Shown here: positions 3,048 to 58,742 of the stretch, one piece after another
Position numbering within the stretch: position 1 is the first letter of the stretch
Layout of the letters: the number at the start of each line of letters is the position of its first letter
NCBI GenBank assembly: GCA_963801475.1
Contig: CAWDEX010000003.1
Span: 80,904 to 144,903, forward strand
Length of the DNA stretch: 64,000 nucleotides
Reading direction: 5' to 3'
Source of the DNA: an uncultured Acidobacteriota bacterium
GTDB taxonomy: Bacteria > Acidobacteriota > Thermoanaerobaculia > UBA5066
Translations under genes and position numbers: made by a program
The notes under the pieces: model-generated
What the model was told of the DNA's origin: nothing
The model's input: only the letters and a program-made list of their open reading frames with translations
The model's database searches: none

Positions 3048-3713
3048 ATGAAGACGGTCCTGGCGCCGGACGCGGCGTACCGCCTCTGGGCCCCGACCTA
3101 CGAGGAGGCCGGAGCGCTAGCGGCGCTGGACGAGCTGGCGCGGACCCGCCTCGACCCCGAGCCCGCGCCGCCGCTCCTCGACGCGGCGTGCGGAACCGGC
3201 CGCCGCCTGAAGACGGCGGCGGGAGGGTGGCGCCGCGAAGCCGCCGGGATCGACGCCGTCCTCGAGATGCTCCGCGCGGGTGGGCCCGGGGGACCGGTCG
3301 CCGTCGCGGATCTTCGAAGGCTTCCCTTCGGGAGCGATTCGTTCCGGACGGCCTGGTGCCGACTCGCCGTCGGCCACCTCGGCGATCTCGCCGGCAGCTA
3401 CCGCGAGCTCTCGCGCGTCCTGTCGCCCGGAGGGCATCTGCTCGTCACCGACTTTCACCCGGAAGCGGCCCGGCGGGGAATGGCCCGGACCTTCCGGAGC
3501 GGGGGAGCGGTCTGGGAAGTTGAGCATCACATCCACGAGATCGCGGCTCATCGGCGGAAAGCCGCCGCCTCGGGTCTCGAGATCGAGGACGTTCTCGAAC
3601 TGGCCGTGGGAGAGGACGTGCGCCCCTTTTTCGACACGACGAAAGCGGTCGGGCTGTACGAGCGGGTGAAGGGCTTGCCGGTGCTTCTGGCCCTCCGGAT
3701 GCGCCGTGACTGA
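3048..3713 (+). CDS. class I SAM-dependent methyltransferase
   Basis: It carries the 'LLDAACGTGRRL' SAM-binding motif I. The first ATG that does not overlap the upstream GT4 is at 3048; the track ORF 2856-3713 extends spuriously upstream. Its stop overlaps the start of the amidohydrolase by 8 nt. Confidence 0.6.
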   Translation: MKTVLAPDAAYRLWAPTYEEAGALAALDELARTRLDPEPAPPLLDAACGTGRRLKTAAGGWRREAAGIDAVLEMLRAGGPGGPVAVADLRRLPFGSDSFRTAWCRLAVGHLGDLAGSYRELSRVLSPGGHLLVTDFHPEAARRGMARTFRSGGAVWEVEHHIHEIAAHRRKAAASGLEIEDVLELAVGEDVRPFFDTTKAVGLYERVKGLPVLLALRMRRD

Positions 3714-4917
3714 GGCGACCCTCCCGACCGGGACGCGGCCGGCTCCTCCGGTCGCGGTGGTCCTGGCGGGGATCCGGGTCGTCACGCCGAGCGGCGTCTA
3801 CCCGGGCCCGCTGAGGATTTCCGGGGGGATCGTGGACGGCGGGGCGCCGCGGCCCGGCGACCGCGTCGTCCGCCTCGAAGGACACCTCGTCCTCCCCGGG
3901 CTCCTGAACGCGCACGACCACCTGCCGCTCAACGCCTTTCCGGAGGTGCCGGACCTGGGGACGTTCGGGAACGCCGCCGACTGGATCGACGCCCTTCGAC
4001 CGGTCCTCGACTCGATCCCGTTCCGCGCGGCGCGGGCGATCGACCCGGAGGTCCGCGCGCGTCACGGGGCGCTGAAGAACCTCCTGGCGGGCGTGACGAC
4101 CGTCGCCCACCACGATCCGTGGCTCGACCCGATGGGGGGTGCGGACTTTCCGGTCCGCGTTCTCTCGCCCTATGGCTGGTGTCACTCGCCGCGCCTCGCC
4201 GGACGGTACGGTCCCGGCCTCGAGGAGAGTCACGCGATGACGCCGGCGGGCGCCCGATGGTTCATTCACCTCGCCGAAGGGACGGACGGGGAGGCCCGGG
4301 GCGAGGTGACGCTTCTCGACCGCCGGGGGCTCCTGGGTCTGGAGACGGTCGCCGTCCACGGCGTCGGATTCAGCGAGAAGGACGTCGCACGGTTCCTCGC
4401 GGCCGGCTCTTCTCTCGTCTGGTGCCCGTCCAGCAACCTGAAGATCCTCGGGAAGACGCTCGACCCCGGCCCCGTCGCGCGGGCGGGCCGCCTCGCCCTC
4501 GGGACCGACTCCCGGCTGAGCGGCTCGAGGGACCTGCTCGACGAGCTTCGCGCCGCGCGCGACGCGTCCCAGCTGCCGGCCGCCGCCCTTCTCGGGCTCG
4601 TCACGACGAATGCGGGGGAGGTCCTCGGCCTTCGGGGCGCCGGAGCGCTCGAACCCGGCTCGCCGGCCGACCTCGTCGTTCTGCGGGACCCGGGCGGCGA
4701 CCCCTGCGAGGCGATTCTCGGAACGCGGCGCGCGGACCTCCGGGCGGTCGTCACCGGCGGCGTTCCGCGGGTTGCCGATACCGATCTTCTGACGTGGCTC
4801 TCGGCCGCGGGAGCCGCGCCGCGCCCGGCCCGGCTGGACGGAGCCGCCAAGCTCGTCGACGGGAGGATCTTCGCCGGTGAGGCGGCGGCACTGGAACCGG
4901 GGCTGACGCTGTCGTGA
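3706..4917 (+). CDS. metal-dependent amidohydrolase-family hydrolase
   Basis: 403 aa with an N-terminal 'LLNAHDHLPLN' HxH metal-binding motif, characteristic of the amidohydrolase/deaminase superfamily. It is translationally coupled to the upstream methyltransferase. Confidence 0.6.
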   Translation: MTEATLPTGTRPAPPVAVVLAGIRVVTPSGVYPGPLRISGGIVDGGAPRPGDRVVRLEGHLVLPGLLNAHDHLPLNAFPEVPDLGTFGNAADWIDALRPVLDSIPFRAARAIDPEVRARHGALKNLLAGVTTVAHHDPWLDPMGGADFPVRVLSPYGWCHSPRLAGRYGPGLEESHAMTPAGARWFIHLAEGTDGEARGEVTLLDRRGLLGLETVAVHGVGFSEKDVARFLAAGSSLVWCPSSNLKILGKTLDPGPVARAGRLALGTDSRLSGSRDLLDELRAARDASQLPAAALLGLVTTNAGEVLGLRGAGALEPGSPADLVVLRDPGGDPCEAILGTRRADLRAVVTGGVPRVADTDLLTWLSAAGAAPRPARLDGAAKLVDGRIFAGEAAALEPGLTLS

Positions 4918-4933: not shown

Positions 4934-6352
4934 TCAGGAGAGGGCCGGTTCGGGAAAGAGAAGCTGGCCGAGGGCTTTCTCGAGCGGGAGGGCGAAGACG
5001 TTCCGTTCGCATCGCCACCGCGCCACGCGCTGGAGGGGGCGCTTCCACGCCGTCGGCTCCGCGTAGCCGAGGCGCTGGTAGTACTTGTACCGCTCCACCA
5101 GGCGGTTCCGCTCGGGCGTCACCCAGGGGCTGTCGGCGTCGTAGAAGTCGAACCGGGCCCACTCGTCCAGCGTCTGCGGCGGACGGTAGCCGGCCCGCAC
5201 GGCCTCCTCGGTCAGGGGCGTCCCGGGATACGGCTTGAAGTAGAAGATCGGCGTCTCGAAGAGGGGACTCATCGCCCGGAGCCGCCGGGCCGCGTCGAGG
5301 CTCATCCGGATGCTCTCGTCGCTCTCGCCGGGAAAGCAGACGATGAACGGAAACTGGACCCTCACGCCGTGGCGAAGACACTTCTCGGCGGAGAGGAAGA
5401 CCTGCTCGAGGCGGATGTCCTTCCGGATCCGGTCCAGCATCTCCTGCGAGCCGCTCTCCACGCCGAGGAGGACGCGGCGGAGGCCCGAGCGCCGGACCTT
5501 GGACATCACCTCGTCCGTGAGGCGAACGCCCTGGTCCGCGCGCAACGTGGCCGCCCAGGAGATCGGAAGCTCCCGGCGGAGGATCTCCTCGGCGATCGCG
5601 TCGACGCGCGAAAGGGAGGTGAAGAAAGTCTCGTCCTGGAAGTTGACGTCGTCGAATCGATGGGTTCGGTGGAGCCGTTCCAGCTCCTCGCCGAGGCGGC
5701 CGGGAGCAAGGCCGGTCCACTGGCGCCCGTAGACGTACGGGTCGGCACAGAAGGCGCAGCGGAAGCGGCACCCCTGCGAGGCGATGTAGTCGATCTGCCG
5801 CTTGCCCTTCTTCTCGAAGTACCGTTCGACGGGGAGGAGGCCGTAGTCGTGCGGGGCGAAGCCTTGGACCGCCGCGAACGTCCGTGCCGGGTTCCGAACC
5901 GCCGTTCCGTCCGTGTCGCGGCAGGCGCACCCGGCGCAGCCGACGAGCGAAGTCCCGGCCGCGAGCCGCTCCAGGATCTCGACGAACGTCTCCTCGCCCT
6001 GTCCCTGGACGGTCGCGTCGACGGAGGGCTCCTCGAGGCATTCCGTCCCGAAGAGCGAAGGGTGCCAGCCGCCCCAGACGACGGGGAGATCCGGGAATCG
6101 CGCCTTCGCCGCCCGTGAGACGGCCAGCGCGTCGCGGATCGGCGCCCCCGTCAGGACCGAGACGCCGAGAGCGAGTGCGCCGGGGAGCTGCGCGAGAAGC
6201 GCGGCGACCGGGTCGTCCTCGAGCCGCCCGTCGACGATCACGACCTCGTACCGGTCCTTCGGCAGGTGCGAGCCGACGGCAAGCGGCCCGAGCGGCATCG
6301 TCCAGAAGACGGCGCGGGGGTTGTAGAGGACGACCTTCCGCCGCGCGCTCAT
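4934..6352 (-). CDS. B12-binding (class B) radical SAM protein, paralog A
   Basis: N-terminal cobalamin-binding-like domain 'KVVLYNP...MPLGPLAVGSHL', then radical SAM 'SQGCRFRCAFCADP' (CxxxCxxC). The start ATG is at 6350-6352 (MSARRK). The track ORF 4934-7237 has a spurious N-terminal extension that is antisense-overlapping the next gene. Confidence 0.75.
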   Translation of the reverse strand: MSARRKVVLYNPRAVFWTMPLGPLAVGSHLPKDRYEVVIVDGRLEDDPVAALLAQLPGALALGVSVLTGAPIRDALAVSRAAKARFPDLPVVWGGWHPSLFGTECLEEPSVDATVQGQGEETFVEILERLAAGTSLVGCAGCACRDTDGTAVRNPARTFAAVQGFAPHDYGLLPVERYFEKKGKRQIDYIASQGCRFRCAFCADPYVYGRQWTGLAPGRLGEELERLHRTHRFDDVNFQDETFFTSLSRVDAIAEEILRRELPISWAATLRADQGVRLTDEVMSKVRRSGLRRVLLGVESGSQEMLDRIRKDIRLEQVFLSAEKCLRHGVRVQFPFIVCFPGESDESIRMSLDAARRLRAMSPLFETPIFYFKPYPGTPLTEEAVRAGYRPPQTLDEWARFDFYDADSPWVTPERNRLVERYKYYQRLGYAEPTAWKRPLQRVARWRCERNVFALPLEKALGQLLFPEPALS

Positions 6353-7428
6353 CGCGGGGCCTCCGTTCCGGCGGGGACGGCTTCCCTCAGGTTCAGCCGG
6401 CAGATGCAGCGAACGCAGACCGGATTTGTGGCGACATCGAGCGCCTCGCGGAAGGTGCGGGCGGCCGGAGCGTTCACGAGCGTCCCGAGAGACTCTCCTT
6501 CCCCGAGCGTTCCGTACGACCGGTGGAAGAAGCAGGGCCTCACGGAGCCGTCGACCCCGACGACCGCGGAGACCCAGGGCGCATTGCATCGCGACGGGGG
6601 AGGCGGTGCCGCACCGGCGATCGTCGCGAAGTGCCCGAGGATCCGCTCCCGGAGCTTCGCCGGGCTCTCTTCGATGAAGCCGGACTCGAAGTCGGCGGCA
6701 TGCCGTCCGGCGAGGTCCTCGAGGACGCGCTCGAGCTCGGGAAGCTCCTCGGGAGACAGGGCGAGAGCGGACGCGGGCGTCTCGCCTCGCCCGCCGGGGC
6801 GGTTGAAAGCCTCGCTCGAGACGTCGACGGCGAGAAAGCTGATGTGCCGAAACGCCAGGATCTTCGCCGCGTCTACCGTGGCCGGAAGGTGCCGGAAGTT
6901 CCCCTTCTGGACCGTGCAGCGCCCGCCGACGGGAAGCGAAGGCCGCGCGGCCGAGAGCGCGGTCACGCCGGCCGCGATCCGGTCGAAGGCGCCGGGGGTG
7001 CCTCGCAGCGCGTCGTGCACTTCGCGCGGCCCGTCGAGGCTGACGATCACCTCGTCGACCAGGGGCGCGAGGAGATGCGCCTTCCGGGGCAGGAGGGTTC
7101 CCGAGGTCAGGACCGTGACCGCGACGCCCGCTTCCTTCAGGACCCGGCAGAGCCCGCCGAGATCCGGGTGCATCAGGGGCTCGCCCCCGGTCAGAACGAC
7201 GTTCGATACGCCGAGGCGCCGCCACTCCGGAAGCCATCCGGCGACGTCGGCAACCCGGATTTCCCGCGAATCCTTCACTTTCCAGATGTCACACATGACG
7301 CAGCGGCAGTTGCACCGGCTCTGGACCTCGAGGAGGAGGACCGGCAGCCGCGTCACCGGCTCCCGCTTCGGGAGGAGCGGCCCGGTGCCCGGCCGGCGGG
7401 CGGCGGTCCGGAGCGGCGCGGCGCTCAT
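6349..7428 (-). CDS. radical SAM protein with C-terminal SPASM/twitch-like auxiliary-cluster domain
   Basis: 'SRCNCRCVMCDIW' is a CxxxCxxC motif about 35 aa from the N-terminus. The C-terminus has 'CNAPWVSAVVGVDGSVRPC' (CX13GX4C) followed by 'CVRCIC'. The start ATG at 7428 (MSAAPL) overlaps the upstream stop by 4 nt (ATGA). There is no N-terminal RRE/PqqD-like extension. Confidence 0.7.
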   Translation of the reverse strand: MSAAPLRTAARRPGTGPLLPKREPVTRLPVLLLEVQSRCNCRCVMCDIWKVKDSREIRVADVAGWLPEWRRLGVSNVVLTGGEPLMHPDLGGLCRVLKEAGVAVTVLTSGTLLPRKAHLLAPLVDEVIVSLDGPREVHDALRGTPGAFDRIAAGVTALSAARPSLPVGGRCTVQKGNFRHLPATVDAAKILAFRHISFLAVDVSSEAFNRPGGRGETPASALALSPEELPELERVLEDLAGRHAADFESGFIEESPAKLRERILGHFATIAGAAPPPPSRCNAPWVSAVVGVDGSVRPCFFHRSYGTLGEGESLGTLVNAPAARTFREALDVATNPVCVRCICRLNLREAVPAGTEAPR

Positions 7429-8207
7429 GCCGCCCTCTCGAAGCGGAGAAGGACGTGATCGGCGAGATGCGGAAGGGGCCAGGCTCCCTCCAGCCGGCGC
7501 TCGGCGCGGTCGAGGGCGTCGAGGAGCCCGGGGTGACGGTCCGCCCACCGTCCCGCGTACGTGGGCGGAAGGAGTGCGCCGATCGCGCGCGCCTCGCGAA
7601 AATTGAAGCCGGGAGCGAAGGAGCGTCGAACGAGGCCGAGGCCCGGATAGACGACGGTCAGGCCGCGCCAGGCGACGCCGCGCCGCGAATACCGGCGAAA
7701 GGCCTTTCGCGCCTCGCCGTGGAGGAAGGACCATGCCCACTCCCAGGGCACCGCCCGTCCCATGAGGACGAGGACGAGAGGCGCGCCCGGGCGGAGTATC
7801 GAGGCGAGAGCGCGCGCCGGAGCGCTGAGGTCCGCCACGCAGTTCAGGGCGCCGAAATTCGAATACGCGCCGTCGAACGGGCCGTCCCGGAGGCCACCGA
7901 GCGCCTCGATCGGGCGCGTCTCGACGCGGACGCGGCCAGCCAGCCCCTCTCGGGCGACCTTGGCGAGAGCCGCGTCGGCCATGGGGGGAGAGGCGTCGAG
8001 CGCGTGCACCGAGACGCCGCGCGCCGCGAGATGGACCGCGTCCTCGCCCGTTCCGCAGCCGAGGTCGAGGACACGGGAGCCTCCAGGGAACGCGGCGTCG
8101 AGGTGCCGCCAGACGGCGCGCCGGAGGCGCTGGCCGAGCGGCGTCGCGGTGAACTCGGCGTCGTAGTTCGCGGCGAGGGCGTCGAAGGGGGAAGCGGCCG
8201 CGGTCAT
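7425..8207 (-). CDS. class I SAM-dependent methyltransferase
   Basis: 'RVLDLGCGTGEDAVHLA' motif I. ATG at 8207 (MTAAASPFD). It has 4-nt overlaps with both neighbouring genes. Confidence 0.65.
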   Translation of the reverse strand: MTAAASPFDALAANYDAEFTATPLGQRLRRAVWRHLDAAFPGGSRVLDLGCGTGEDAVHLAARGVSVHALDASPPMADAALAKVAREGLAGRVRVETRPIEALGGLRDGPFDGAYSNFGALNCVADLSAPARALASILRPGAPLVLVLMGRAVPWEWAWSFLHGEARKAFRRYSRRGVAWRGLTVVYPGLGLVRRSFAPGFNFREARAIGALLPPTYAGRWADRHPGLLDALDRAERRLEGAWPLPHLADHVLLRFERAA

Positions 8208-9598
8208 GCCTCGACCTCGCCCGCGGCCGCGAGGAGACCGTCCCGCGCCGTCCGGGCCTCGGCCCGCTTCGCGGCCGCGGCCGCCGGATCGGAGGCGTCG
8301 AGACGGTGCGCCTCGACCTCGCTCCTGAGCCACCGGTCGGCCTGACGGTAGTAGGCGCGGCTGTGCCGCCCGGCGATCCGGTGGTCGCGGTCCGTCGCGT
8401 CCTCCCAGGCCTTATCGAGAACGACGCGTCCGGCCACCTTCCCGAAGTAGCCGGTGTTCCGGATGGGATAGGAGACCGTCGTGAAGAAGACGTCGGGCCC
8501 CGCCTGCTTGACGTGCTCGATCGTCGCCTCGATGTCCTCCACCGTCTCGCCGTCGTACCCCCACATCAGGAACATCCCGACCCCGATGCCGTGTCGCTGC
8601 GCGGCCCGGGTGGCCCACCGCACCTGCTCCACGGTCACTCCCCGTTGCATGGCGTCGAGGATCCGCTGGCTGCCGCTCTCGGAGCCGATCCAGATCCGCG
8701 AGCACCCCATCGCCGCGAGGGTCTCGAGAACCTCTTCCTTCATCATCCGGTCGGCCCGCGAGATCGTCTCGAACGGGATCCGGAGTCCGCGGGACTTCAG
8801 CTCCCGCGCGTAGGCGAAGAGCCAGCCGTGCTGCAGCGTGAAGACGTCGTCGGCGTACCAGAGCTGGTCGGGGCGGTACCGGTCGCGGATCCGCTCGACC
8901 TCGGCGGCCACGTTCGCCGGCGAGCGGCGGCGGTGCGTGAACCCGAAGACGGCGTGCGAGCACCAGTCGCACTTGTACGGACAGCCCCGGGCGGTGATCA
9001 GGTTGACGCTTCCCGCGCCGTGGTGCCTCCTCCAGACGTCGACGTACGCCGCGGTGTCGATCGCCTCGCGGTCCGGATCGGGGAGGAGGTCGAGGTCGGG
9101 GATCTGCGCCCGCTCGCCGTTCGTCACGACGCGCCCGTCCCCGTCGCGAAAGACGGTCCCCGCGACGCCGTGAAGGCGGTGCGGCCCGCGGGCGGCGAGG
9201 GCGGGCAGGAGGTCCGCCATCGTCTCCTCCCCCTCGCCGAGGACGACGACGTCCGCGCCCCGTTCCAGGTACTCCGCGGGATAGTTCGCGCTCTCCGGGC
9301 CGCCGAGGACGACCGTGAAGCCGAGCGACTTCGCCCGGGCCGCGATCTCGACGACCGGCCGCCGCGTCATGAGGTTCGTGTAGAGGCCGAGGACCTTCGT
9401 CCCCGGCCACGCCTCCAATGCGGCGTCAAGCTCGTCCCTCGTCCGGAAGGTCGTGTCGAAGACCTCGACGGCGACGCCGCGGCTCTTCAGGAAGGCCGAC
9501 ACGTAGAGAAGACCGAGAGGCGGATACGGCTTCATGATCTGCCGCTCCTTCTCGTCCTCGGCGAGGAAGTAGCCGTGCGAGAGGAGAAGGTCGCTCAC
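8204..9598 (-). CDS. B12-binding radical SAM protein, paralog B
   Basis: 'LLLSHGYFLAEDEKERQIMKPYPPLGLLYVSAFL' B12-binding-domain N-terminus and 'TARGCPYKCDWCSHA' CxxxCxxC. The start is chosen as GTG 9598 (VSDLLL) by alignment with paralog D (MAGRRLLLAHSFFL), giving a GTGA overlap with the upstream gene. An alternative ATG lies at about 9535. Confidence 0.75.
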   Translation of the reverse strand: MSDLLLSHGYFLAEDEKERQIMKPYPPLGLLYVSAFLKSRGVAVEVFDTTFRTRDELDAALEAWPGTKVLGLYTNLMTRRPVVEIAARAKSLGFTVVLGGPESANYPAEYLERGADVVVLGEGEETMADLLPALAARGPHRLHGVAGTVFRDGDGRVVTNGERAQIPDLDLLPDPDREAIDTAAYVDVWRRHHGAGSVNLITARGCPYKCDWCSHAVFGFTHRRRSPANVAAEVERIRDRYRPDQLWYADDVFTLQHGWLFAYARELKSRGLRIPFETISRADRMMKEEVLETLAAMGCSRIWIGSESGSQRILDAMQRGVTVEQVRWATRAAQRHGIGVGMFLMWGYDGETVEDIEATIEHVKQAGPDVFFTTVSYPIRNTGYFGKVAGRVVLDKAWEDATDRDHRIAGRHSRAYYRQADRWLRSEVEAHRLDASDPAAAAAKRAEARTARDGLLAAAGEVEA

Positions 9599-10971
9599 GC
9601 GTCCTCGCGGAACGCGGGCCGGAGGTGCCCGTATTCCTGCGAGTTGGCCGGCGTGAGGCCTCCGGACGCCGCGGCGAAGGCCGCCACCCGGGCCCTCAGC
9701 TCGGGCTTGAGCCACGGCACACGCGGGTCCTCGTGCGTCATCCACCCCATCCACTCGGGCTCGATCCACTCTTCGAGCGAACCGGGCGTACCGTCGATCG
9801 GATCGACGTTCCCGTACGTCCCGCGCCTCTGCGGCGTCGGCGTGTAGTAATAGGTGATCAGCTTCATCGTCGGGTTCACAGCCTTGAGACGCCGGATGAA
9901 GGCGAGTGTCTTTTCGGCCTCGGCCTCGGGGTCGTCGGGATCGCCGAACATGAAGGAGAACTCCGGAACGATGCCGTGCTCCCGGGCCCTCGCCGCAAAC
10001 GCAAGGGTCTGCTCCGTCGTCAGGTTCTTCGACATCCTCGCGAGGGTCGCGTCCGATCCCGACTCGGCGCCGAGGTAGACCATGGTGCAGCCGGAGCGGC
10101 GGATCTTCTCCCATGTCCGGTCGGAGAAGCGGAGCATGACGTCGATCCGGGCCTCGCACCACCAGCGAAGCTCCAGCGGAGTCATCCGTTCGGCGATCTC
10201 GCCGGCGTGCGCCTCGGACTGGAAGAAGTTGTTGTCGTAGAAGTGGAGACCGTCCATCCCGTGCCCCCGGACGAGGCCGGAGAGGTTCTCGACGGTCCGG
10301 GCGGGGTTCTCGAATTTCTCCCGGCTTCCGTAGACGGAGATCACGCCGCAGAAGTTGCACGTGTAAGGGCAGCCGATCGAGGCCTGGTAGACGCCGCTCC
10401 GCCGGCCGAGAAAGGTCGGTTCGAGATAGTCATCCACGTCGATTCGCCCGTACGGAGGCGGCGGCAGCTCGTCGGGACCGACCCACGGCCGTTCGGCGTT
10501 CAGCCGGACGGACCCGGCCTCCTTCCAGCCGAGACCGGCGACCGACGAGGGTTCGCGACGGCCTTCGAGAACTTCGAGAAGCTCGAGGAACGTCCGCTCA
10601 CCCTGGCCGCGCACGATCCAGTCGACGTACGGTGCGGCCAGGACCGTCCCCGGATAGAGGGAAGGAAAGTACCCGCCCCAGACGACGGGAACCCGTGGAA
10701 ACCTCTTCTTCAGCCTCTTCGTCAGCGGGACGGCGGCGGCGAGCTGCGGGCCGGGCATGACCGTGAACGCCAGCAGGCGAACGCGGTCGCCTGCCGCTTC
10801 GGCCGCTTCGGCCCGCTGGACGACGGCGTTGAAGACGTCCGGGTCCGGCCGGTTTCCGTCCACGATGTCCCACGTTTCACCCTCGGGAAGCGCGGCCCCG
10901 AGCGCCATGACGGAGAGAGGGAACCGCCGATGGAGGGGCCTCGTCGCCCGGGGGTTGATCAGGAGGATCAT
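9595..10971 (-). CDS. B12-binding radical SAM protein, paralog C
   Basis: 'MILLINPRATRPL...' N-terminus typical of B12-rSAM enzymes, and 'SIGCPYTCNFCGV' CxxxCxxC. 458 aa. Confidence 0.75.
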   Translation of the reverse strand: MILLINPRATRPLHRRFPLSVMALGAALPEGETWDIVDGNRPDPDVFNAVVQRAEAAEAAGDRVRLLAFTVMPGPQLAAAVPLTKRLKKRFPRVPVVWGGYFPSLYPGTVLAAPYVDWIVRGQGERTFLELLEVLEGRREPSSVAGLGWKEAGSVRLNAERPWVGPDELPPPPYGRIDVDDYLEPTFLGRRSGVYQASIGCPYTCNFCGVISVYGSREKFENPARTVENLSGLVRGHGMDGLHFYDNNFFQSEAHAGEIAERMTPLELRWWCEARIDVMLRFSDRTWEKIRRSGCTMVYLGAESGSDATLARMSKNLTTEQTLAFAARAREHGIVPEFSFMFGDPDDPEAEAEKTLAFIRRLKAVNPTMKLITYYYTPTPQRRGTYGNVDPIDGTPGSLEEWIEPEWMGWMTHEDPRVPWLKPELRARVAAFAAASGGLTPANSQEYGHLRPAFREDA

Positions 10972-10981
10972 GGCGCGGGCG

Positions 10982-12457
10982 CTATGACGCGTCCCGGGCG
11001 CCGGCCGCCGCGGCGCGCGGAAGACCGGCGGAGGGGAGGATCTTCCGCTCGGAGCGGAAGTCCGCCTCGCGCCAGGCGAGGTCCTTCCAGGCGTCGTCGA
11101 TCGCCGCCGGCTCCATGGGCCCTTCCCGTCCCGTGAGGACGAGCGCCTCGGCGTGCAGGAGGTCGCGCACGGTCCGGTAGAACGGGCTCGTGTAGGTCCC
11201 CTCGAAAAGCATCGCCAGCTCGTCCGTGTCGCTCCAGTTCTTCTGGTTCCGCATCTGATCCCGGACGCGGTCGTAGAACACGGTGCCCGGGAGAGGGTAA
11301 GAGACGGAGACGCCGATGTCGTGCGGCCGCTCCTCGCGGAGGAGCTGGCGCGTCGAGAGAATCTCCCCCCACGTCTCGCCCGTGTAGCCGAGCTGGAGGA
11401 ACCACGACGGGAGGATCCCGTGGCGTTTGAGGAGCCGGGTGGCCGACCGGGTCTGCTCCACGCGCGCCCCCTTGTCCATCGCGTCGAGGACCTTCTGCGA
11501 GCCCGACTCGACCCCCATCCAGACCTCCTCGCACCCGGCGTGGGAGAGGGCGGCGACGGCCGAGGGGGTCATCAGGTCGATGCGCGACTGCATCGTGAAG
11601 GGGATCCGGGCGTCCCGGCGGTCCACCTCCTCGGCGAACGACTCGATCCAGCGCGGCGTCAGGCCGAAGATGTCGTCGGCGAACCAGAGGTGGTCGGGGC
11701 GGACACGGGTCTTGAGCGCGGCCATCTCGTCGGCGACGGCCTGAGGGCTCCGCTGCGCGTACCGCGTGCCGTAGAGGGGCTTCGCGCACCAGTTGCAGCG
11801 GTAGGGGCAGCCGCGGGTCGTCACGGCGTTCCATGAGAAGCGCCCGTGCGCCCGCAGCCACGTGGCCCGGTAGCGCGCGGCGTCGACGAGGTCCCACGCG
11901 GGAAGGGGGAGGGCGTCGAGGTCCTCGAGGAACGGGCGGGGCGGTGTCCGGTGGACGAGGCCCCCCTCCGCGGGCAGGGCGAGCCCTGCGATCCCGGTGA
12001 GGCACGGCACGGGAGCGGCCCACGCGGCGACGAGCTCGGGGGCCGTCCGCTCGGTCTCGCCGAGCATCACGGCGTCGGCTCCGGCCGCGAGGTAGAGCTC
12101 CGGGCGGTCGGCCGCGTCGGGGCTGTTCACGGCCACCGGAAGGCCCCGCTCCTTCGCCGCGCGAATCATCGCGAGGGTTCCCTCCCGCATCCGGGTCGTG
12201 CACATCTTCGTCAGGAAGTTGAAACCGTCCTCGATGAGGAGAACGGCGGCGAAGCGCTCGCCCGCGAGGCGCGGCACGAACTCCTCCTCGCCGGGGGAGA
12301 GCATGGCGTCGAAGAGGGCCACCTCGTACCCGCGAGACCGGAGGACCGCCGCGGTCAGAAGCGTGGCGAGAGGCGGGTAGGGACGCATCTTTCTCGTCTG
12401 CTTCGCGTCGTGCGCCAGGAAGAAGGAATGGGCGAGGAGGAGGCGCCGGCCGGCCAT
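10982..12457 (-). CDS. B12-binding radical SAM protein, paralog D
   Basis: 'MAGRRLLLAHSFFLAHDAKQTRKMRPYPPLATLL' and 'TTRGCPYRCNWCAKP'. The ATG at 12457 is preferred by homology with paralog B over the track start at 12475. Confidence 0.75.
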   Translation of the reverse strand: MAGRRLLLAHSFFLAHDAKQTRKMRPYPPLATLLTAAVLRSRGYEVALFDAMLSPGEEEFVPRLAGERFAAVLLIEDGFNFLTKMCTTRMREGTLAMIRAAKERGLPVAVNSPDAADRPELYLAAGADAVMLGETERTAPELVAAWAAPVPCLTGIAGLALPAEGGLVHRTPPRPFLEDLDALPLPAWDLVDAARYRATWLRAHGRFSWNAVTTRGCPYRCNWCAKPLYGTRYAQRSPQAVADEMAALKTRVRPDHLWFADDIFGLTPRWIESFAEEVDRRDARIPFTMQSRIDLMTPSAVAALSHAGCEEVWMGVESGSQKVLDAMDKGARVEQTRSATRLLKRHGILPSWFLQLGYTGETWGEILSTRQLLREERPHDIGVSVSYPLPGTVFYDRVRDQMRNQKNWSDTDELAMLFEGTYTSPFYRTVRDLLHAEALVLTGREGPMEPAAIDDAWKDLAWREADFRSERKILPSAGLPRAAAAGARDAS

Positions 12458-12464
12458 AATGAGA

Positions 12465-13391
12465 CTATATCTCACTTGATCGCGCGATGGTTTCGAGACG
12501 GCGGAGGGCTCCGGCGAGGTCCCGGGCGCCGTCCAGCCGGAATCCGCCCCGGGCCCCCCAGGCGCGGGCGAGGACGTCCGGGTCCGCCCCGTCCCGCTCC
12601 TGCGGGATCTCCCCGTCCCGGAACGCCGCGGCGAACGCCTCGGCCGGGAGCGACACGAGCGCTGCCGGCGTCCGATCGCGATCTCCGAGAAGAACCGCGG
12701 CGGCGAGCCGGGCGTGGCGGGCTACGGGCGACGTCCCGGTCCAGAGGTCGACCCGCCGCTTCGCCTCGCCGCCTGTAAACGCGGGCTCCGTCCGGTCGAA
12801 GAGGCCGAGAAGCTCCGCGCCGTCGGGAAGGAGCGTCAGGTCACGGACGCCGGCGGCCAGTTCCTCCGGGTCCTCGCGGGCCACGAGGAGGCTCTCGTCG
12901 GCCAGGACGGAAAGGCCCTCGCCGGCGAGCGCCGCCGCGAGGGTCGACTTTCCGGCTCCCGGACCGCCGCGGATCACGATTGTGCCTCGTGGCCCGACGA
13001 TGGCGGCCGCGTGAAGGATCTGCCACTTCCGGCGGGAGAGGAGCGCCGTCGCCGGCGCCTCGAAAAGGTAACGCGCCGCAAGGGCCGGATCCCGCGAGAG
13101 GAGAGCGCGGGACACACGCGCCTCGACACGCGCCGCCGTCACATCGATCCGCGCGCGGAGGAGATCGCCAAGGGCCAGCTCCCAGCCGTCACGTCTCCTC
13201 TTCCAGACGAGTCCGCGCTCCGGGAGCTGGCCTGCCTCCGGGCCCTCGAGAACGGCAACGTCGAACCGGATCGCGTCCGGATCGGCCTCCCGAGCGGGCT
13301 CCCAGAGCGTCTCGGCGAGGACAAACGGCAACGGGTCGTCCGAAGTGAGGACGAGTCGGTCGCGGGGCGGAGCGAAGACTCTGACGGGCAA
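12465..13391 (-). CDS. HPr-kinase-C-terminal-domain-like P-loop kinase (HprK-related)
   Basis: 'VIRGGPGAGKSTLAAALAGEGLSVLADESLLV' matches the HprK C-domain Walker-A pattern plus 'L(V/A)(A)DE'. It has no HprK N-domain. It is the first gene of the rSAM operon. Its start codon is uncertain (TTG/GTG). Confidence 0.55.
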   Translation of the reverse strand: MPVRVFAPPRDRLVLTSDDPLPFVLAETLWEPAREADPDAIRFDVAVLEGPEAGQLPERGLVWKRRRDGWELALGDLLRARIDVTAARVEARVSRALLSRDPALAARYLFEAPATALLSRRKWQILHAAAIVGPRGTIVIRGGPGAGKSTLAAALAGEGLSVLADESLLVAREDPEELAAGVRDLTLLPDGAELLGLFDRTEPAFTGGEAKRRVDLWTGTSPVARHARLAAAVLLGDRDRTPAALVSLPAEAFAAAFRDGEIPQERDGADPDVLARAWGARGGFRLDGARDLAGALRRLETIARSSEI

Positions 13392-13450
13392 TCAGGGAAA
13401 CTCGCGCAACCTTTTCCGGGGTATCGGCGTCCATACTCTCACGGAGAGGA

Positions 13451-16400
13451 TTGCCTGTGAGAGCCGCACGCCACGTCCTGCTTCCCGTCCTCGTTTCGGC
13501 CGTTCTCCTCCCGGTCGCGGCGCCGGCGGCCGCCGGCGAGATCCGGGGCCGGCTCCTCGTCGGCGAGAAGCCGGCGTCGGGCGTCTCGGTGACGGCTCTT
13601 CACTACGAGCCGCCTCTCGAGGCGGCCCGGCGACAGGCTCGGGGCGGCGGGGAGCCGAAAGCGGTCGTCGGCGCGACCACCGGGGCGGACGGCCGGTTCG
13701 CGCTGGCCGTTCCTTCGGAGCCGCCCGGGGGATTCGTCGTCCGCCTGTCCGGCGCCGATGTCCGGGCGGCCGAGGTCGAAGGCGTGTTCGACGCCTCCGA
13801 GGTCGTCGATCTCGGCGATCACGTTCTCGCGATCGGAGAGGCGCTCGCCGGAACCGTTCTCGACCGGACGGGCCGGCCGGTGGCGGGAGCGGAGGTGACG
13901 CTGCTCGCCGCGACGCCGGGCGGCGGGGATCTGGTCGCGGTGCCGGTCCGGACGACGACGGGAGCGGACGGCACCTTCCGGCTGGACGGTGCGGCGGGAG
14001 ACCGGGGGACGAACGCCCTCCGGGTCGAGATGAAGGGATTCGCGCCCTTTGCGGAGACCCTCGCGAAGGCGGGCGCCCTGTCGACGCCGGTCGTCCTCGC
14101 CCCGGGCGTCACCCTTTCCGGAACCGTCAGGCCGCTTCCCGGAAGAACCGCCGCGGGAGCCCTCGTCCGCTTCGAAGGGCGAGCGGAGACGCGCTGGGTC
14201 GAGACCGGTCCGGACGGGACCTTCACGATTCCGGATGCGCCGCCGGGCAGAGGCCGTCTCGTCGCCGACGCCGGAGAAGCGGGATTCGGCGAAGCGACGG
14301 GCCTCGTTCTACCGCTCGCGGAGGGGAAGGGCGCCACCGTCGCCCTCATGCGGCCCGCCTCGCTCGAGGGGCGCGTCGTGGACGCGAAGACGCTCCGGGC
14401 CGTCGCGCGTGCGAAGGTGAGCGTCAGCCGGGGCGCCCTCCGGCGGACGGTCCGCTCCGGACCGGATGGCCGGTACGTCCTCGCCCCGGTTCCTCCGGGG
14501 ACGTGGAGCTTCCAGGCCGACGAGCCGCGATTCGTTCTCTTGCGGAAGAACGTCACGATCGCCCCGGGCGAGACGATGAAGCTGGACGCCCCGCTCGTCC
14601 CCGGCGCCACGCTCGCCGGACGCGTGACGGACGAGAACGGTCAGCCGGTCGCCGGAGCGCAGGGAACGTTCGCCCCGGCCACCATGACCGGAATTGCGGC
14701 GCTGCTCCGCCAGGCCCGGGCCGGGGGAGGGGCGACCGCTTTCCGGACGGCCGCCGACGGGACCTTCCGGGCGTCGCGTCTCGCCCCGGGCGAGAACCAG
14801 CGGCTCACCGTCGGCCACCCCGACTACGCCGCGACGACGGTGGGCGGAATCAACCTTCTCTCCGGCCAGTCGTCGGCCAACCTGGCCATCGTTCTGCGGC
14901 GCGGGACCGTCGTCGCCGGCGTCGTCCGGGACAAGGACGGCGCGCCCGTGGAGGGAGCCGAGGCCGAAGTCCAGCTGGGGATGAGCTTCCGCGGAGGGCG
15001 CGGCGGTGCTGCGGCCCAGATCAACGTCCTGCCGGGCCCCGGCGGCGTGCGCGGGCGCCCGCCCGTGAGGACCGGCGCGGACGGCCGGTTCGAGCTCCGC
15101 GGCCTCTCTCCGGGGGACTACACGCTCTGGATCAGGAAGAGCGGATTCGCCACCGAGCGGATCGATCCCGTGAAGGTGCCGGAGAACGGCTCGCCCGAGG
15201 CGATCACGGTCACGCTGGGGCCGGGCGCGGCGATCGCGGGAATCGTCCGCCAGAAGAGCGGCACCCCCGCCGAAGGGTGGTCCGTTCTCGCGAGCGAGGC
15301 CGGCACGTCGGCGATCGGGCCGCGGGCCCGTGCCAACCTAAACCCGACGGGCGCGGACGGCCTCTTCGTTCTCGAAGGGCTCAAGCCCGGGCAGGCGTAC
15401 GACCTCCAGCTCGTCGGCGGGCCGGGGATCGGCCCGTCGCGAAAAGGCGTCGTCCCGCCCGCCGACGGCGTCGAGATCGTCGTCGCGGGAGGCGGGCGGA
15501 TCGCGGGGCGCGCCGTGGACGCACAGTCGGGACGCCCGATCCCGGAATACGCCGTCTCCTACGAGCCGGAGCGGACGGGCGGCGGCGGCGTCTTCCGGAT
15601 CGTGAACCGGATGGCGGGGCAGCGCCTGACCGGGATGGGAGAGAAGACCGAGGTCCGGTCGGACGACGGGACGTTTCTCCTCGAGGACGTCCCGCCCGGG
15701 ACGTGGTCCGTCGTCGTCGAAGCGAAGGGATACCAGCCTGCGCGCGCCGGAAACGTCGTCGTCGAGGAAGGGAAGACCGTGGGAGACGTCGAGGTGAAGG
15801 CCTCCCTCGGAAGCTTTCTCAAGGGGCGCGCTCTCGACTCGGTCTCGGGCCGTCCGGTTCCCGGCGCCACCGTGACGCACGGCACGGGGGGCGCCGGTGG
15901 CGGTCCTCTCGCCCTTCTGGCCGGTGCGGCGAGCGACGAAGAGACCACGACCGACGCGGACGGGGCGTTCAACCTCGACGGCCTCGTCCCCGGAAAGGTC
16001 ACGCTGACCGTGAAGCATCCGGATTACGCCGACGCGACCCAGACGATCGACGTGAGGGAAGGAACGGCGGCCGTCGACATCAAGCTGGCGCCGGGAAGCG
16101 CTCTCGGCGGTCTCGTCCTCTCCGACGGGCAGCAGCCGCTCCCGGGCGCCAGCGTCGCCCTTCAGTCGGCGGGCGACGCCGGCTTCGGCCGCGGCCTGCT
16201 CGCCGGGGGGCAGACCGTCGTGACCGACGCCTCGGGGCGCTTCCGCTTCGACCACCTCCCGTCGGGGCGATACGGCCTCGTCGCGTCGATCCAGAACCGG
16301 TCCAGCGCGACCCAGACGATCGTCCTTCAGGACGGCCAGGCTCGCGACGACGCCGTCCTTAAGATCGCGGCCGGCGCGACGCTGCAGGGGGTCGTGAGCG

Positions 16401-55141: not shown

Positions 55142-55435
55142 GAGGGGAGATTAGCGTCTCGGCGATTTCCGAGGCTCTGCGGGGAGGATCGCGCCCCATT
55201 AGCAACGCACGTACGAGCCGCTCCGGCTGGCCGCAGGCCCGCGTTCAGCGGCGAGCGGAGCGGGTTCGCCGGAACGCGGGGTCAGGCGCCTCCACCGATC
55301 GGCGGAGGATCGCCCGGCGTGGAGCGTTCAGCCGGAAAGCAGCAGATACCCGGCGAGCTGCAAGGCGGCCGGGGTCGTCGAAGAGACAAGAGGCGAGTCT
55401 GTGTGCCACGACCGTCCTGTTAGAGTTTCGGCCGG

Positions 55436-57311: not shown

Positions 57312-57351
57312 GTGTCCCGGGCGGCGGGGCTCGTCCCCGCGCGGACCGCGG

Positions 57352-57380: not shown

Positions 57381-57421
57381 CCGGGGACGGTGCCGCGGAG
57401 GCGATGGCCCGGTCGGAAACC

Positions 57422-58666: not shown

Positions 58667-58742
58667 CGGGCTCCTCGAGACGGAAGTCGTTCCGAGCGCT
58701 CGAGATGGTACCGCACGCGGCGACGGCCGAGGGAACGCGCGA

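What the first reader, a model, noticed from the sequence alone, without database searches (positions are those of the whole stretch)
4934..13391. Seven-gene translationally coupled operon: four paralogous B12-radical SAM enzymes, a SPASM/twitch radical SAM enzyme, a SAM methyltransferase and an HprK-like kinase, with no recognisable substrate gene
What the sequence shows:
- All seven genes are on the minus strand.
- Every junction is a 4-nt stop/start overlap (ATGA at 6349-6352 and 7425-7428; GTGA-type at 8204-8207 and 9595-9598), or a gap of 7-10 nt. This implies one translationally coupled transcript starting upstream of 13391.
- The four B12-rSAM proteins are paralogs that share N-terminal B12-binding-like segments and the cores SQGCRFRCAFC, TARGCPYKCDWC, SIGCPYTCNFC and TTRGCPYRCNWC.
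- The fifth rSAM enzyme has a C-terminal CX13GX4C...CX2CXC auxiliary-cluster region (SPASM/twitch-like), but no N-terminal RRE/PqqD-like leader-recognition domain.

What established knowledge suggests:
- Class B (cobalamin) rSAM enzymes are typically C-methyltransferases or C-C bond-forming tailoring enzymes. Examples are PoyB/C in proteusins, HpnP/HpnR on hopanoids, and GenK/Fom3/TsrM.
- HPr-kinase-like kinases are known to phosphorylate lasso-type RiPPs.
- B12-rSAM enzymes together with an rSAM enzyme and an N-methyltransferase resemble proteusin maturation.

What is inference: no small precursor ORF is present inside the operon, in the 59-bp divergent upstream region or in its flanks. The substrate is therefore either encoded in trans, or is the divergently encoded giant secreted protein, or is a lipid or glycan, consistent with the flanking GT4, methyltransferase and amidohydrolase genes. 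Four iterative class-B rSAM paralogs in one operon is unusual.
Basis: partly seen in the sequence, partly recalled or inferred. Interest (0 to 1): 0.85.

Follow-up and report, generated by a model that had tools for sequence, protein, structure and literature searches.

The report
Kinase and B12-radical-SAM glycoside-tailoring cluster
The seven-gene operon is real and belongs to a larger, uncharacterised gene cluster, conserved in several mostly uncultured bacterial phyla, that most likely builds and heavily methylates a sugar-based molecule rather than a peptide.

Summary
Seven minus-strand genes (4934-13391) form a tightly packed operon: an HPr-kinase-fold P-loop protein (K), four class-B (B12-domain) radical SAM enzymes (B1-B4), one radical SAM enzyme with a C-terminal Cys-rich auxiliary-cluster domain (SP), and one class I methyltransferase. 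None reaches the curated cut-off of any named family.

The operon is only part of the system. The flanking genes recur with K-B1 in other genomes: two GT4 glycosyltransferases, a second methyltransferase, an amidohydrolase, and an NTP_transf_5 protein cut by the window edge.

Across 34 non-redundant loci, K followed by B1 is the invariant core; these loci come from Thermoanaerobaculia, Holophagales, Gemmatimonadota, Planctomycetota and Acidimicrobiia. Methyltransferase/radical-SAM modules vary around it.

All six Gemmatimonadota loci place a GT4, a PIG-L deacetylase and an Eis-like GNAT opposite K-B1. One also has a TobZ/NovN-type carbamoyltransferase. Some Thermoanaerobaculia loci add GT9 and a polytopic GT-C-like protein. 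No precursor peptide, RRE/PqqD domain or RiPP peptidase was found.

Best reading (about 0.5): a gentamicin-like tailoring logic on an unknown amino-sugar glycoside or glycoconjugate. A RiPP reading is not excluded. Function is inferred, not shown.

The parts
3..686 (+). C-terminal 227 aa of an 805-aa NTP_transf_5 (PF14907) protein that is cut by the window edge. This C-terminal part is a separate domain that exists as a stand-alone protein elsewhere.
   Evidence: The same gene is called as 805 aa with PF14907 on a Logan contig. The window part is 51% identical over 205 aa to the stand-alone 291-aa protein L037:17590-18465, which has a weak GT2 match. NTP_transf_5 genes occur in 14 of 34 K-B1 loci.
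683..1801 (-). GT4 glycosyltransferase 'GT4b'
   Evidence: Glycos_transf_1 89.5 bits and Glyco_trans_4_4 68 bits. Best PDB sequence matches are a protein deposited as Tll1590, BshA, PimB' and MshA. Orthologues at 42-73% identity lie next to K-B1 in Acidobacteriota, Gemmatimonadota and Acidimicrobiia.
1811..2977 (-). GT4 glycosyltransferase 'GT4a'
   Evidence: Glyco_trans_1_4 60.8 bits. PDB matches are Tll1590 and PimA. It is 54% identical to the in-cluster GT4 of L003.
3048..3713 (+). Class I SAM methyltransferase 'MT2', orthologue of the in-operon MTc of other loci
   Evidence: Methyltransf_11 48.7 bits. It is 48% identical to L001 MTc, which sits inside the K-B1 operon there. It is called as 221 aa on the Logan contig.
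3706..4917 (+). Amidohydrolase 'AH' of the TRZ/ATZ-deaminase type. Possibly disposes of SAM by-products, or is a deacylase/deaminase of the pathway.
   Evidence: Amidohydro_1 60.1 bits. Best NCBIfam matches are deaminases, including 5'-deoxyadenosine and MTA/SAH deaminase, all far below cut-off. PDB matches include MTA/SAH deaminase 4f0r and TM0936. Orthologues lie inside the K-B1 operon in L001, L005, L007, L008 and others.
4934..6352 (-). Class-B radical SAM enzyme B4
   Evidence: PF02310 56.2 bits, PF04055 64.8 bits, motif SQGCRFRCAFC. Orthologues at 59-73% identity in 11 loci.
6349..7428 (-). Radical SAM enzyme SP with a C-terminal five-Cys auxiliary-cluster (SPASM/twitch-like) domain and no RRE
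   Evidence: PF04055 68 bits, PF13186 28.9 bits. Best named relative is BlsE: 80.9 bits in NCBIfam (cut-off 400) and 82 bits against PDB 7vob. The Cys residues are conserved.
7425..8207 (-). Class I SAM methyltransferase MT1
   Evidence: Methyltransf_25 56.2 bits. Best NCBIfam match is CpaM at 60.8 bits (cut-off 180). Orthologues follow B3 in 9-10 loci.
8204..9598 (-). Class-B radical SAM enzyme B3
   Evidence: PF02310 54.5 bits, PF04055 81.6 bits, motif TARGCPYKCDWC. It is 38% identical to B1. Orthologues at 60-71% identity in 9 loci.
9595..10971 (-). Class-B radical SAM enzyme B2
   Evidence: PF02310 45.8 bits, PF04055 47.4 bits, motif SIGCPYTCNFC. It is 32% identical to B4. Orthologues occur in 22 of 34 loci.
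10982..12475 (-). Class-B-architecture radical SAM enzyme B1, the invariant partner of K (start GTG 12475 or ATG 12457)
   Evidence: PF04055 70 bits; PF02310 30.8 bits, just below the gathering score. The model has pLDDT 83.6. Foldseek matches are MgmA, TsrM, AprD4 (best TM-score, 0.67/0.72), OxsB, CysS and TokK. B1 is present directly after K in nearly all loci, 32 of 34, at 51-83% identity.
12465..13391 (-). K: P-loop protein of the HprK/PEPCK fold, presumed kinase and first gene of the operon
13392..13450 (.). 59-bp divergent intergenic region between K and the giant-protein gene; presumed promoter region
   Evidence: Sequence. No sigma-70 consensus match and no Rfam match.
13451..17668 (+). 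Neighbour, not shown to be part of the system: 1405-aa secreted protein with 12 CarboxypepD_reg repeats
   Evidence: PF13620 427.7 bits in 12 stretches. An N-terminal hydrophobic segment is present. It lies divergent to K in 15 of 34 loci, all Acidobacteriota, and is absent elsewhere.

Best explanation
The operon is the methylation/radical half of a larger cytoplasmic pathway. That pathway assembles and decorates a sugar-based molecule: an amino-sugar glycoside or glycoconjugate whose acceptor is still unknown.

Proposed steps; all of them are inferred, none is shown:
1. The two GT4 enzymes build a mono- or di-glycoside on a small-molecule or lipid acceptor.
2. K phosphorylates a hydroxyl of this intermediate. 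This creates either the handle or the leaving group that its constant partner B1 needs.
3. B1-B4 carry out radical chemistry on unactivated sugar carbons. C-methylation is the most likely reaction. Dehydration (AprD4-like) or ring rearrangement (HpnJ-like) is possible for B1.
4. SP performs a further radical step on the sugar, by analogy with BlsE.
5. MT1 and MT2 add N- or O-methyl groups.
6. The NTP_transf_5 fusion protein extends or caps the phosphate, as PsmN does.
7. The amidohydrolase either removes SAM by-products (5'-deoxyadenosine, SAH) or acts as the deacylase/deaminase of the pathway.

In related genomes the product is then exported or transferred to the envelope.
For: - **The core travels with sugar enzymes in three or more phyla.** GT4 genes occur in 17 of 34 loci, GT9 in 8 and GT2 in 4. 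The minimal Acidimicrobiia version is a K-like protein, two GT4s, B1 and one methyltransferase.
- **Gemmatimonadota context.** All six loci have GT4, a PIG-L deacetylase (PF02585 68-88 bits; BshB/MshB are the best named relatives) and an Eis-like double GNAT, divergent from K-B1.
- **Further sugar-type tailoring genes.** L020 carries a NovN/GdmN/TobZ-type O-carbamoyltransferase between B1 and B4 (322 bits). Sulfotransferases occur in 6 loci.
- **Envelope-facing enzymes.** Four Thermoanaerobaculia loci carry a polytopic protein after AH, with at least 10 hydrophobic segments and a weak PMT_2/GT-C match. L037 has a membrane Sulfatase-family, EptA-like protein in an operon with NTP_transf_5.
- **Closest solved or named relatives act on sugars.** For SP it is BlsE. 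For B1, AprD4 has the best phmmer score (58 bits) and the best TM-score. The GT4s resemble BshA, MshA and PimA/B'.
- **Precedent.** Gentamicin biosynthesis uses two glycosyltransferases, a deacetylase, two class-B radical SAM C-methyltransferases, two SAM N-methyltransferases and a kinase that primes deoxygenation (PMC12689558).
- **No RiPP hallmarks**.
- **Locus behaviour.** The locus sits at a syntenic chromosomal position with the host's base composition, while its module content varies. Surface-glycan loci behave this way.
- **All window enzymes lack membrane segments**.
Against: - No enzyme reaches any curated family cut-off, so every activity is inferred.
- The window itself has no PIG-L, GNAT, GT-C or NDP-sugar genes.
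- GT genes are missing from the 10-kb flanks of several full-length loci (L011, L022, L028, L036).
- As far as I recall, the characterised non-HPr members of the HprK-like group all act on peptides. The K, NTP_transf_5, sulfotransferase and ABC combination also occurs in lasso clusters (PMC9266682; the sulfotransferase part is my recollection).
- The acceptor is unknown.
- The amidohydrolase resembles deaminases, not sugar deacetylases.
Confidence: 0.5

Rival explanations
1. RiPP or protein maturation with the precursor encoded elsewhere. K phosphorylates a Ser/Thr of a peptide and NTP_transf_5 decorates the phosphate. The B12 radical SAM enzymes C-methylate side chains as PoyB/C do. SP makes a cross-link or epimerises. 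The methyltransferases N-methylate, and the GTs glycosylate the peptide.
For: - K has the HprK fold and weak matches to HprK_rel_A/B. One K homologue and the K-like protein of L038 carry the ScmC Pfam label.
- PsmK and PsmN are a proven kinase plus nucleotidyltransferase pair on a lasso peptide (PMC9266682).
- ABC exporters of the HlyB/NHLM/MsbA type lie in L036 and L038.
- A multi-B12-rSAM set plus a methyltransferase resembles proteusin tailoring (my knowledge).
Against: - No precursor family, RRE/PqqD, leader peptidase or lasso enzyme appears in the eight Pfam-annotated loci.
- No conserved small intergenic ORF.
- B1-B4 are 458-497 aa, whereas the RiPP-type models ApyD and TIGR03975 are 645 and 606 positions long.
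- SP has no N-terminal domain.
- The glyco context (GT4 x2, GT9, GT2, PIG-L, GNAT, carbamoyltransferase, GT-C-like) is heavier than in any RiPP cluster I know of.
- The locus is syntenic and widely conserved rather than patchy.
Confidence: 0.22
2. The operon modifies the divergently encoded giant CarboxypepD_reg protein (13451-17668), for example by phosphorylation, glycosylation and methylation before export.
For: - The giant protein is divergent to K in 15 loci.
- The adjacency persists in loci where the Mfd/PliI synteny is lost (L011-L014, L024, L026, L037).
- GT9 enzymes include protein heptosyltransferases, and PMT_2-like enzymes can glycosylate proteins (my knowledge).
Against: - The giant protein is absent from K-B1 loci in Holophagales (L039), L003, L022, L028, L030, Planctomycetota, Gemmatimonadota and Acidimicrobiia. 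L007 has only a more distant 1100-aa CarboxypepD_reg protein about 5 kb from K.
- It is a 1405-aa secreted multi-domain protein, while all the enzymes are cytoplasmic and soluble.
- No recognition domain is evident.
Confidence: 0.07
3. Lipid-tail or lipid-core tailoring. The B12 radical SAM enzymes methylate or cyclise membrane lipids (hopanoid-, ladderane- or brGDGT-type chemistry), and the GTs make the head group.
For: - B3 and B4 score 102-114 bits on the 'lipid biosynthesis B12-binding/radical SAM' model, and all four score 84-109 bits on HpnJ.
- MT1 has a weak CMAS match.
- The organism is an acidobacterium, a phylum linked to branched tetraether lipids (PMC10087280, listed).
Against: - All these scores are 3-5 times below the curated cut-offs, and BchE scores as high or higher.
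- No fatty-acid, isoprenoid, ether-lipid, squalene/hopene or Tes/Mss-type gene appears in any of the loci examined.
- The system also occurs in Acidimicrobiia and Planctomycetota.
Confidence: 0.08

Closest known systems
Aminoglycoside tailoring: gentamicin GenM1/GenD/GenM2/GenN/GenL/GenD1/GenK/GenP; apramycin AprD4; tobramycin TobZ
   Same: Same logic. Two glycosyltransferases and, in the Gemmatimonadota relatives, a de-N-acetylase. Several class-B radical SAM enzymes acting on sugar carbons alongside class I SAM methyltransferases, a 'methylation network'. A kinase that phosphorylates a sugar hydroxyl (PMC12689558). AprD4 is B1's best phmmer and TM-score match in the PDB. A TobZ/NovN-type carbamoyltransferase sits in L020.
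   Different: No 2-deoxystreptamine or cyclitol synthase, aminotransferase or dehydrogenase genes. The kinase has the HprK fold, whereas GenP is, as I recall, an APH-type kinase. Four rather than two class-B enzymes. The locus is chromosomal and syntenic in uncultured Acidobacteriota rather than an actinomycete antibiotic cluster. No curated family cut-off is met.
Hopanoid cyclitol-ether head-group pathway (HpnI, HpnK, HpnJ) and archaeal calditol synthase
   Same: A glycosyltransferase, a deacetylase and a B12-domain radical SAM enzyme remodel a sugar head group (my knowledge; calditol is cited in PMC13459092). B1 scores 103.5 bits on the HpnJ model.
   Different: The HpnJ cut-off is 577.6 bits, so B1 is not a member. 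No hopanoid or tetraether genes are nearby. A kinase and extra methylation modules are present.
Lasso-peptide tailoring pair PsmK (HprK-like kinase) and PsmN (nucleotidyltransferase-fold enzyme)
   Same: An HprK-fold kinase co-occurs with an NTP_transf_5-type protein. PsmK phosphorylates a hydroxyl and PsmN adds hexose to the phosphate (PMC9266682).
   Different: No lasso cyclase, B1/B2 proteins, precursor or PqqD-like protein. K scores only 36 and 24 bits on HprK_rel_A and HprK_rel_B (cut-off 200).
Proteusin maturation (PoyB/PoyC B12 radical SAM C-methyltransferases, PoyD radical SAM epimerase, PoyE N-methyltransferase)
   Same: Several class-B radical SAM enzymes, a further radical SAM enzyme and a SAM methyltransferase in one operon (my knowledge).
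   Different: No NHLP/Nif11 precursor, no RRE, no protease. The enzymes are about 150 aa shorter than the RiPP-type B12-rSAM models. A heavy glycosyltransferase context is present.
Mycothiol/bacillithiol-type GT4, PIG-L and GNAT triad (MshA/MshB/MshD; BshA/BshB)
   Same: The Gemmatimonadota relatives carry exactly this triad next to K-B1. BshB1/2 and MshB are the best named relatives of the deacetylase. BshA and MshA are among the best PDB matches of the window's GT4b.
   Different: No cysteine ligase (MshC/BshC). The triad is absent from the window. All scores are below the curated cut-offs.

Membership tests
Class B (cobalamin-dependent) radical SAM enzymes | Radical SAM core with CX3CX2C | tested here: met
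   PF04055 scores 47-82 bits in B1-B4. The motifs are present in the sequence.
Class B (cobalamin-dependent) radical SAM enzymes | N-terminal Rossmann-like B12-binding domain | tested here: met
   PF02310 scores 45.8-56.2 bits in B2-B4. B1 scores 30.8 bits, below the gathering score of 32.1. However, the B1 model aligns over its whole length with MgmA, TsrM, OxsB, TokK and CysS.
Class B (cobalamin-dependent) radical SAM enzymes | Actual cobalamin binding and use | not testable with these tools
   AprD4 shares this architecture but does not bind cobalamin (PMC12931638). It is B1's best TM-score match, so B1 in particular may be B12-independent.
Named B12-rSAM subfamilies (BchE, HpnJ, HpnR, PhpK, BzaD, ladderane-type, ApyD, TIGR03975, AprD4) | Score at or above the NCBIfam curated cut-off | tested here: not met
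   Best scores are 100-123 bits (BchE, cut-off 481) and 84-109 bits (HpnJ, cut-off 577.6). No model is reached.
SPASM/twitch radical SAM enzymes | C-terminal Cys-rich auxiliary-cluster domain | tested here: met
   PF13186 scores 28.9 bits (gathering 21.5). Five C-terminal Cys are conserved in 11-14 of 14 homologues.
SPASM/twitch radical SAM enzymes | Full seven-Cys SPASM motif for two auxiliary clusters | tested here: not met
   Only five conserved Cys (CX12GX4C ... CX2CXC). This is more twitch-like or a partial SPASM.
RiPP peptide maturases | RRE/PqqD-like leader-recognition domain, fused or stand-alone | tested here: not met
   The radical SAM motif of SP starts near residue 41. No PF05402 or similar appears in the window genes or in eight Pfam-annotated related loci.
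RiPP biosynthetic gene cluster | Precursor peptide gene in or next to the cluster | tested here: not met
   Gaps in the window are 59 nt or less around the operon. No small intergenic ORF is conserved across the related loci compared. A precursor encoded in trans cannot be excluded.
HPr kinase/phosphorylase and HprK-related kinases | HprK C-terminal-domain fold with a P-loop and a following acidic motif | tested here: met
HPr kinase/phosphorylase and HprK-related kinases | Score at or above the family cut-off (PF07475; TIGR04352; TIGR04355) | tested here: not met
   16 bits against 33.3; 36.1 and 24 bits against 200. K forms its own tight family.
HPr kinase/phosphorylase and HprK-related kinases | Kinase activity and the identity of the phospho-acceptor | not testable with these tools
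PEPCK, a small-molecule kinase, aligns over more residues (211) than HprK (130-146).
Aminoglycoside (2-deoxystreptamine) biosynthetic clusters | Cyclitol synthase plus aminotransferases | tested here: not met
   None among the window genes from base 1 to 24302 or in the related loci.
Amino-sugar glycoside pathways (GT4, de-N-acetylase, N-acyltransferase) | GT4, PIG-L and GNAT adjacent to the core | tested here: inconclusive
   Met in all six Gemmatimonadota loci. The window has the two GT4s but no PIG-L or GNAT. Its amidohydrolase may or may not substitute.

The most novel reading that the evidence does not exclude
An HprK-fold kinase and a class-B-architecture radical SAM enzyme form an obligate pair acting on a carbohydrate. 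This would be the first non-peptide substrate for the HprK-like kinases. Up to four cobalamin-type radical SAM enzymes would then install C-methyl groups or rearrangements on an amino-sugar glycoconjugate. That glycoconjugate would be a conserved, lineage-variable cell-envelope or secreted component of Thermoanaerobaculia, Gemmatimonadota and relatives. It would be a new class of radical-SAM-tailored glycan outside antibiotic pathways.
Probability: 0.35. Interest if true: 0.75.

Novelty: new variant of a known kind. Interest (0 to 1): 0.6.

Why it matters
Class-B radical SAM enzymes that act on sugars are known from only a handful of antibiotic pathways. Here up to four of them are tied to an unusual kinase in a conserved chromosomal locus.

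That locus occurs in abundant, mostly uncultured soil and sediment phyla. If the product is a glycoconjugate, three things would follow:
- It would reveal new carbohydrate chemistry, namely C-methylated or rearranged amino sugars.
- It would give the HprK-like kinases a new type of substrate.
- It would give a B12-dependent trait to organisms whose envelope chemistry is essentially unknown.

The minimal five-gene versions in Acidimicrobiia and Gemmatimonadota offer a tractable entry point for expression. If the product is instead a RiPP with a precursor in trans, it would be a new RiPP class.

Tried and rejected
- **Named B12-rSAM pathways.** No NCBIfam cut-off is met, and no bch, hpn or phosphonate genes lie nearby. 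JGI's automatic label 'anaerobic Mg-protoporphyrin cyclase' for B1 homologues is therefore not credible.
- **Precursor peptide hunt.** All small ORFs in the related loci were clustered. Every recurrent family was a shadow of a large gene or a fragment of a known gene. The one real small protein is a 93-101-aa Gly/aromatic repeat protein. It occurs in only four loci, all lacking SP, and not in the window.
- **Riboswitch or other RNA upstream.** None found.
- **Promoter and terminator scan.** Uninformative.
- **Literature.** No paper links an HPr-kinase-like protein to cobalamin radical SAM clusters, to Thermoanaerobaculia radical SAM enzymes, or usefully to PF14907. One search on 'ScmC' was swamped by unrelated acronyms.
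- **Source contig.** The NCBI record could not be fetched, so the left boundary of the cluster beyond base 1 was not seen.
- **LPS-core-only reading.** Rejected as a general explanation because the core also occurs in Acidimicrobiia, which as Actinobacteria should lack LPS.
- **Horizontal island.** Rejected. GC content is uniform across the locus, and the position is syntenic with mfd/surA in related genomes.

Full report
**1. What is in the window**

The window has 65-75% GC throughout, and the region around the locus is not compositionally distinct. A third-position-GC gene finder recovers seven consecutive minus-strand genes between 4934 and 13391. Their starts match gene calls on public contigs.

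In order of transcription the genes are:
- K, 12465-13391, 308 aa
- B1, 10982-12475, or 12457 if the ATG is used
- B2, 9595-10971
- B3, 8204-9598
- MT1, 7425-8207
- SP, 6349-7428
- B4, 4934-6352

Four junctions are 4-nt stop/start overlaps, and the other two are a 10-nt gap and a 7-nt gap or 11-nt overlap. The scan found one terminator-like site, inside B2, against 3.3 expected by chance. No Rfam family matches. A single, translationally coupled transcript is therefore a fair inference. It has not been shown.

**2. Domain assignments**

Pfam confirms Radical_SAM in five proteins and B12-binding in B2, B3 and B4. B1 falls 1.3 bits short of the gathering score. The AlphaFold model of B1 (pLDDT 83.6) aligns over its whole length with solved class-B enzymes: MgmA, TsrM, OxsB, CysS and TokK. 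It also aligns with AprD4, which has the best TM-score. AprD4 shares the architecture but does not bind cobalamin (PMC12931638). B12 use by B1 is therefore open.

SP has the SPASM Pfam domain above threshold and five conserved C-terminal cysteines. Its radical SAM motif begins near residue 41, which leaves no room for a leader-recognition domain.

None of the seven proteins reaches the curated cut-off of any NCBIfam family.

**3. The four B12-domain enzymes are old, distinct subfamilies**

B1-B3 are 38% identical and B2-B4 32%. Across pairs the identity is 28-29%. By contrast, each has orthologues at 42-83% identity in other phyla. They are not recent iterative copies. Each probably has its own site or reaction.

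**4. The system is larger than the operon**

The genes to the left are:
- AH, an amidohydrolase, 3706-4917
- MT2, 3048-3713
- two GT4 glycosyltransferases, 1811-2977 and 683-1801
- the C-terminal end of an 805-aa NTP_transf_5 protein, 3-686

Orthologues of AH and MT2 sit inside the K-B1 operon in other genomes. GT4b and NTP_transf_5 recur beside the operon across phyla.

The window's NTP_transf_5 protein carries a C-terminal domain that is a separate 291-aa protein elsewhere. The two are 51% identical, and the stand-alone form has a weak GT2 match. To the right, after the giant protein, come housekeeping genes: mfd, PPIases/SurA and the dcw cluster.

**5. Comparative picture**

K homologues are a small family. 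The word-index search gave 209 hits. The exhaustive profile search gave 45 clusters at E<=1e-30, followed by a sharp drop into a superfamily of about 14,000 HprK-like proteins. The nearest members of that superfamily are also unclassified.

I compared 34 non-redundant loci, counting the window. They came from one scan of species-representative genomes plus contig look-ups. The taxa are Thermoanaerobaculia, other Acidobacteriota including Holophagales, Gemmatimonadota, one Planctomycetota MAG, and, with a more distant K, Acidimicrobiia.

K immediately followed by B1 is the constant feature. Two cassettes come and go around it: MTa-MTb-B2-MTc and B3-MT1-SP-B4. The window has B2 plus the second cassette.

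Counts within 10 kb:

| Feature | Loci (of 34) |
|---|---|
| At least one class I methyltransferase | 29 |
| GT4 | 17 |
| Giant CarboxypepD_reg protein | 15 |
| NTP_transf_5 | 14 |
| AH-type amidohydrolase | 11-13 |
| GT9 | 8 |
| Sulfotransferase | 6 |
| ABC transporter match to the L036 exporter (some are unrelated ABC-F or neighbouring genes) | 5 |
| GT2 | 4 |

**6. Evidence on the kind of substrate**

*Gemmatimonadota.* All six loci place three genes directly opposite K-B1: GT4b, a PIG-L family de-N-acetylase and an Eis-like double GNAT. This is the GlcNAc-transfer, de-N-acetylation, N-acylation logic of mycothiol, bacillithiol, GPI and aminoglycoside pathways (my knowledge). One of these loci has a NovN/GdmN/TobZ-type O-carbamoyltransferase between B1 and B4. 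Another has an aryl-CoA ligase after B3.

*Thermoanaerobaculia.* Four loci carry, after AH, a polytopic membrane protein with a weak PMT_2 (GT-C) match. Many have a GT9/GT4b pair. L037 has a membrane Sulfatase-family (EptA/LtaS-like) gene in an operon with NTP_transf_5.

*Acidimicrobiia.* The minimal version is a K-like protein, two GT4s, B1 and one methyltransferase.

*Nearest named relatives.* For SP it is BlsE, which decarboxylates a sugar nucleoside. For B1, AprD4 has the best phmmer score and the best TM-score. For the GT4s they are a protein deposited as Tll1590, BshA, MshA and PimA/PimB'. As far as I know, the named ones all use small-molecule or lipid acceptors.

*Absence of RiPP features.* Eight Pfam-annotated loci contain no PqqD/RRE, no known precursor family and no lasso or lanthipeptide enzyme. 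L038 has an M28 peptidase that is not of a known leader-peptidase type. No small intergenic ORF is conserved.

**7. Proposed mechanism**

The best-fitting model is gentamicin-like tailoring. There, two glycosyltransferases and a deacetylase build the scaffold. Two class-B radical SAM enzymes (GenD1, GenK) and two SAM N-methyltransferases (GenN, GenL) form a methylation network. The kinase GenP phosphorylates a sugar hydroxyl to start deoxygenation (PMC12689558).

By analogy:
- The GT4s build a glycoside.
- K phosphorylates it.
- B1, always coupled to K, acts on the phosphorylated intermediate.
- B2-B4, SP and the methyltransferases add further modifications.
- The NTP_transf_5 fusion decorates the phosphate, as PsmN adds hexose to the PsmK-made phosphoserine (PMC9266682).

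The amidohydrolase resembles adenine-nucleoside deaminases, including 5'-deoxyadenosine and MTA/SAH deaminases, though only weakly. A role in clearing the by-products of five radical SAM enzymes and two methyltransferases is attractive. A role as the pathway's deacylase is also possible, because AH and PIG-L are nearly complementary across loci.

All of these steps are inference. Only the folds, the domains and the gene associations are shown.

**8. Rivals**

*RiPP with the precursor in trans* remains the main alternative. As far as I recall, all characterised HprK-like kinases outside HPr metabolism act on peptides. The kinase/NTP_transf_5/ABC set also occurs in lasso clusters; the sulfotransferase part of that set is from my memory.

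*The giant protein as substrate* is a weak candidate. Its adjacency to K persists in Acidobacteriota even where other synteny is lost, often together with a conserved 445-aa unknown gene. But it is missing in the other phyla and in several Acidobacteriota. It is secreted, while the enzymes are cytoplasmic.

*Lipid-tail modification* has no support from gene context.

**9. Novelty and verdict**

I found no paper describing this cluster type. The enzymes belong to known superfamilies. The inferred logic has a clear precedent, so this is a new variant of a known kind rather than a new category.

Three things are new:
- the obligate pairing of an HprK-fold kinase with a class-B-type radical SAM enzyme
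- the number of class-B enzymes
- the setting: a conserved, modular chromosomal locus in uncultured phyla

The finding is real and worth following up. Its function remains inferred, with roughly even odds for the glycoside-tailoring reading.

Noticed in passing
window 55000-64000: Lower-GC stretch (0.65-0.68) with a second, unrelated radical SAM gene (57422-58666) and an ABC-2 permease plus ATPase (58743-60831). It also holds two tRNA genes (57239-57311 minus strand, 60969-61043 plus strand) and two SLH-domain proteins (62427-63278, 63560-64000). It could be a separate small cluster or an island.
   Followed up: partly
window 51989-53509: A 506-aa protein matches the site-specific recombinase family PF10136 at 483 bits. 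It lies between a mechanosensitive channel gene and an Oxidored_FMN gene.
   Followed up: no
L037:16277-16558 and L037:18462-18758; also L012:17249-17554, L014:17050-17394, L026:16910-17191: Small proteins of 93-114 aa made of six-residue Gly/aromatic repeats (GGVFxSG..GGVWxGG..W), with two paralogues in L037. They occur only in K-B1 loci that lack SP and are absent from the window. They are unexplained. A solenoid protein or an unusual substrate are both possible.
   Followed up: partly
L008:4284-5618, L012:4113-5450 and six other loci: A conserved 445-aa protein with an N-terminal hydrophobic segment and no Pfam match lies directly downstream of the giant CarboxypepD_reg gene in eight loci. 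It is not present in the window, where a PliI-like gene follows instead.
   Followed up: partly
L001:18028-18999 and orthologues in L010, L016, L020, L022: A 323-aa protein with a near-threshold Flavin_Reduct match (24.7 bits) occurs in five K-B1 loci. It could be an electron donor for the radical SAM or cobalamin enzymes. It is not in the window.
   Followed up: no
L028:6451-9834: A 1127-aa protein with a signal-like N-terminus and no Pfam match lies directly upstream of K on the same strand. It occupies the place taken by the giant CarboxypepD_reg protein in other Acidobacteriota.
   Followed up: no
L017:16800-18332: A benzoate/anthranilate-CoA ligase homologue (442 bits to PDB 2v7b) lies 21 nt after B3 on the same strand in a Gemmatimonadales locus. 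It could supply an aroyl group to the neighbouring GNAT.
   Followed up: no
window 17675-18208: A 177-aa protein matches the PliI family of periplasmic lysozyme inhibitors. It lies between the giant protein gene and mfd, and this arrangement is conserved in L001, L008 and L010.
   Followed up: no
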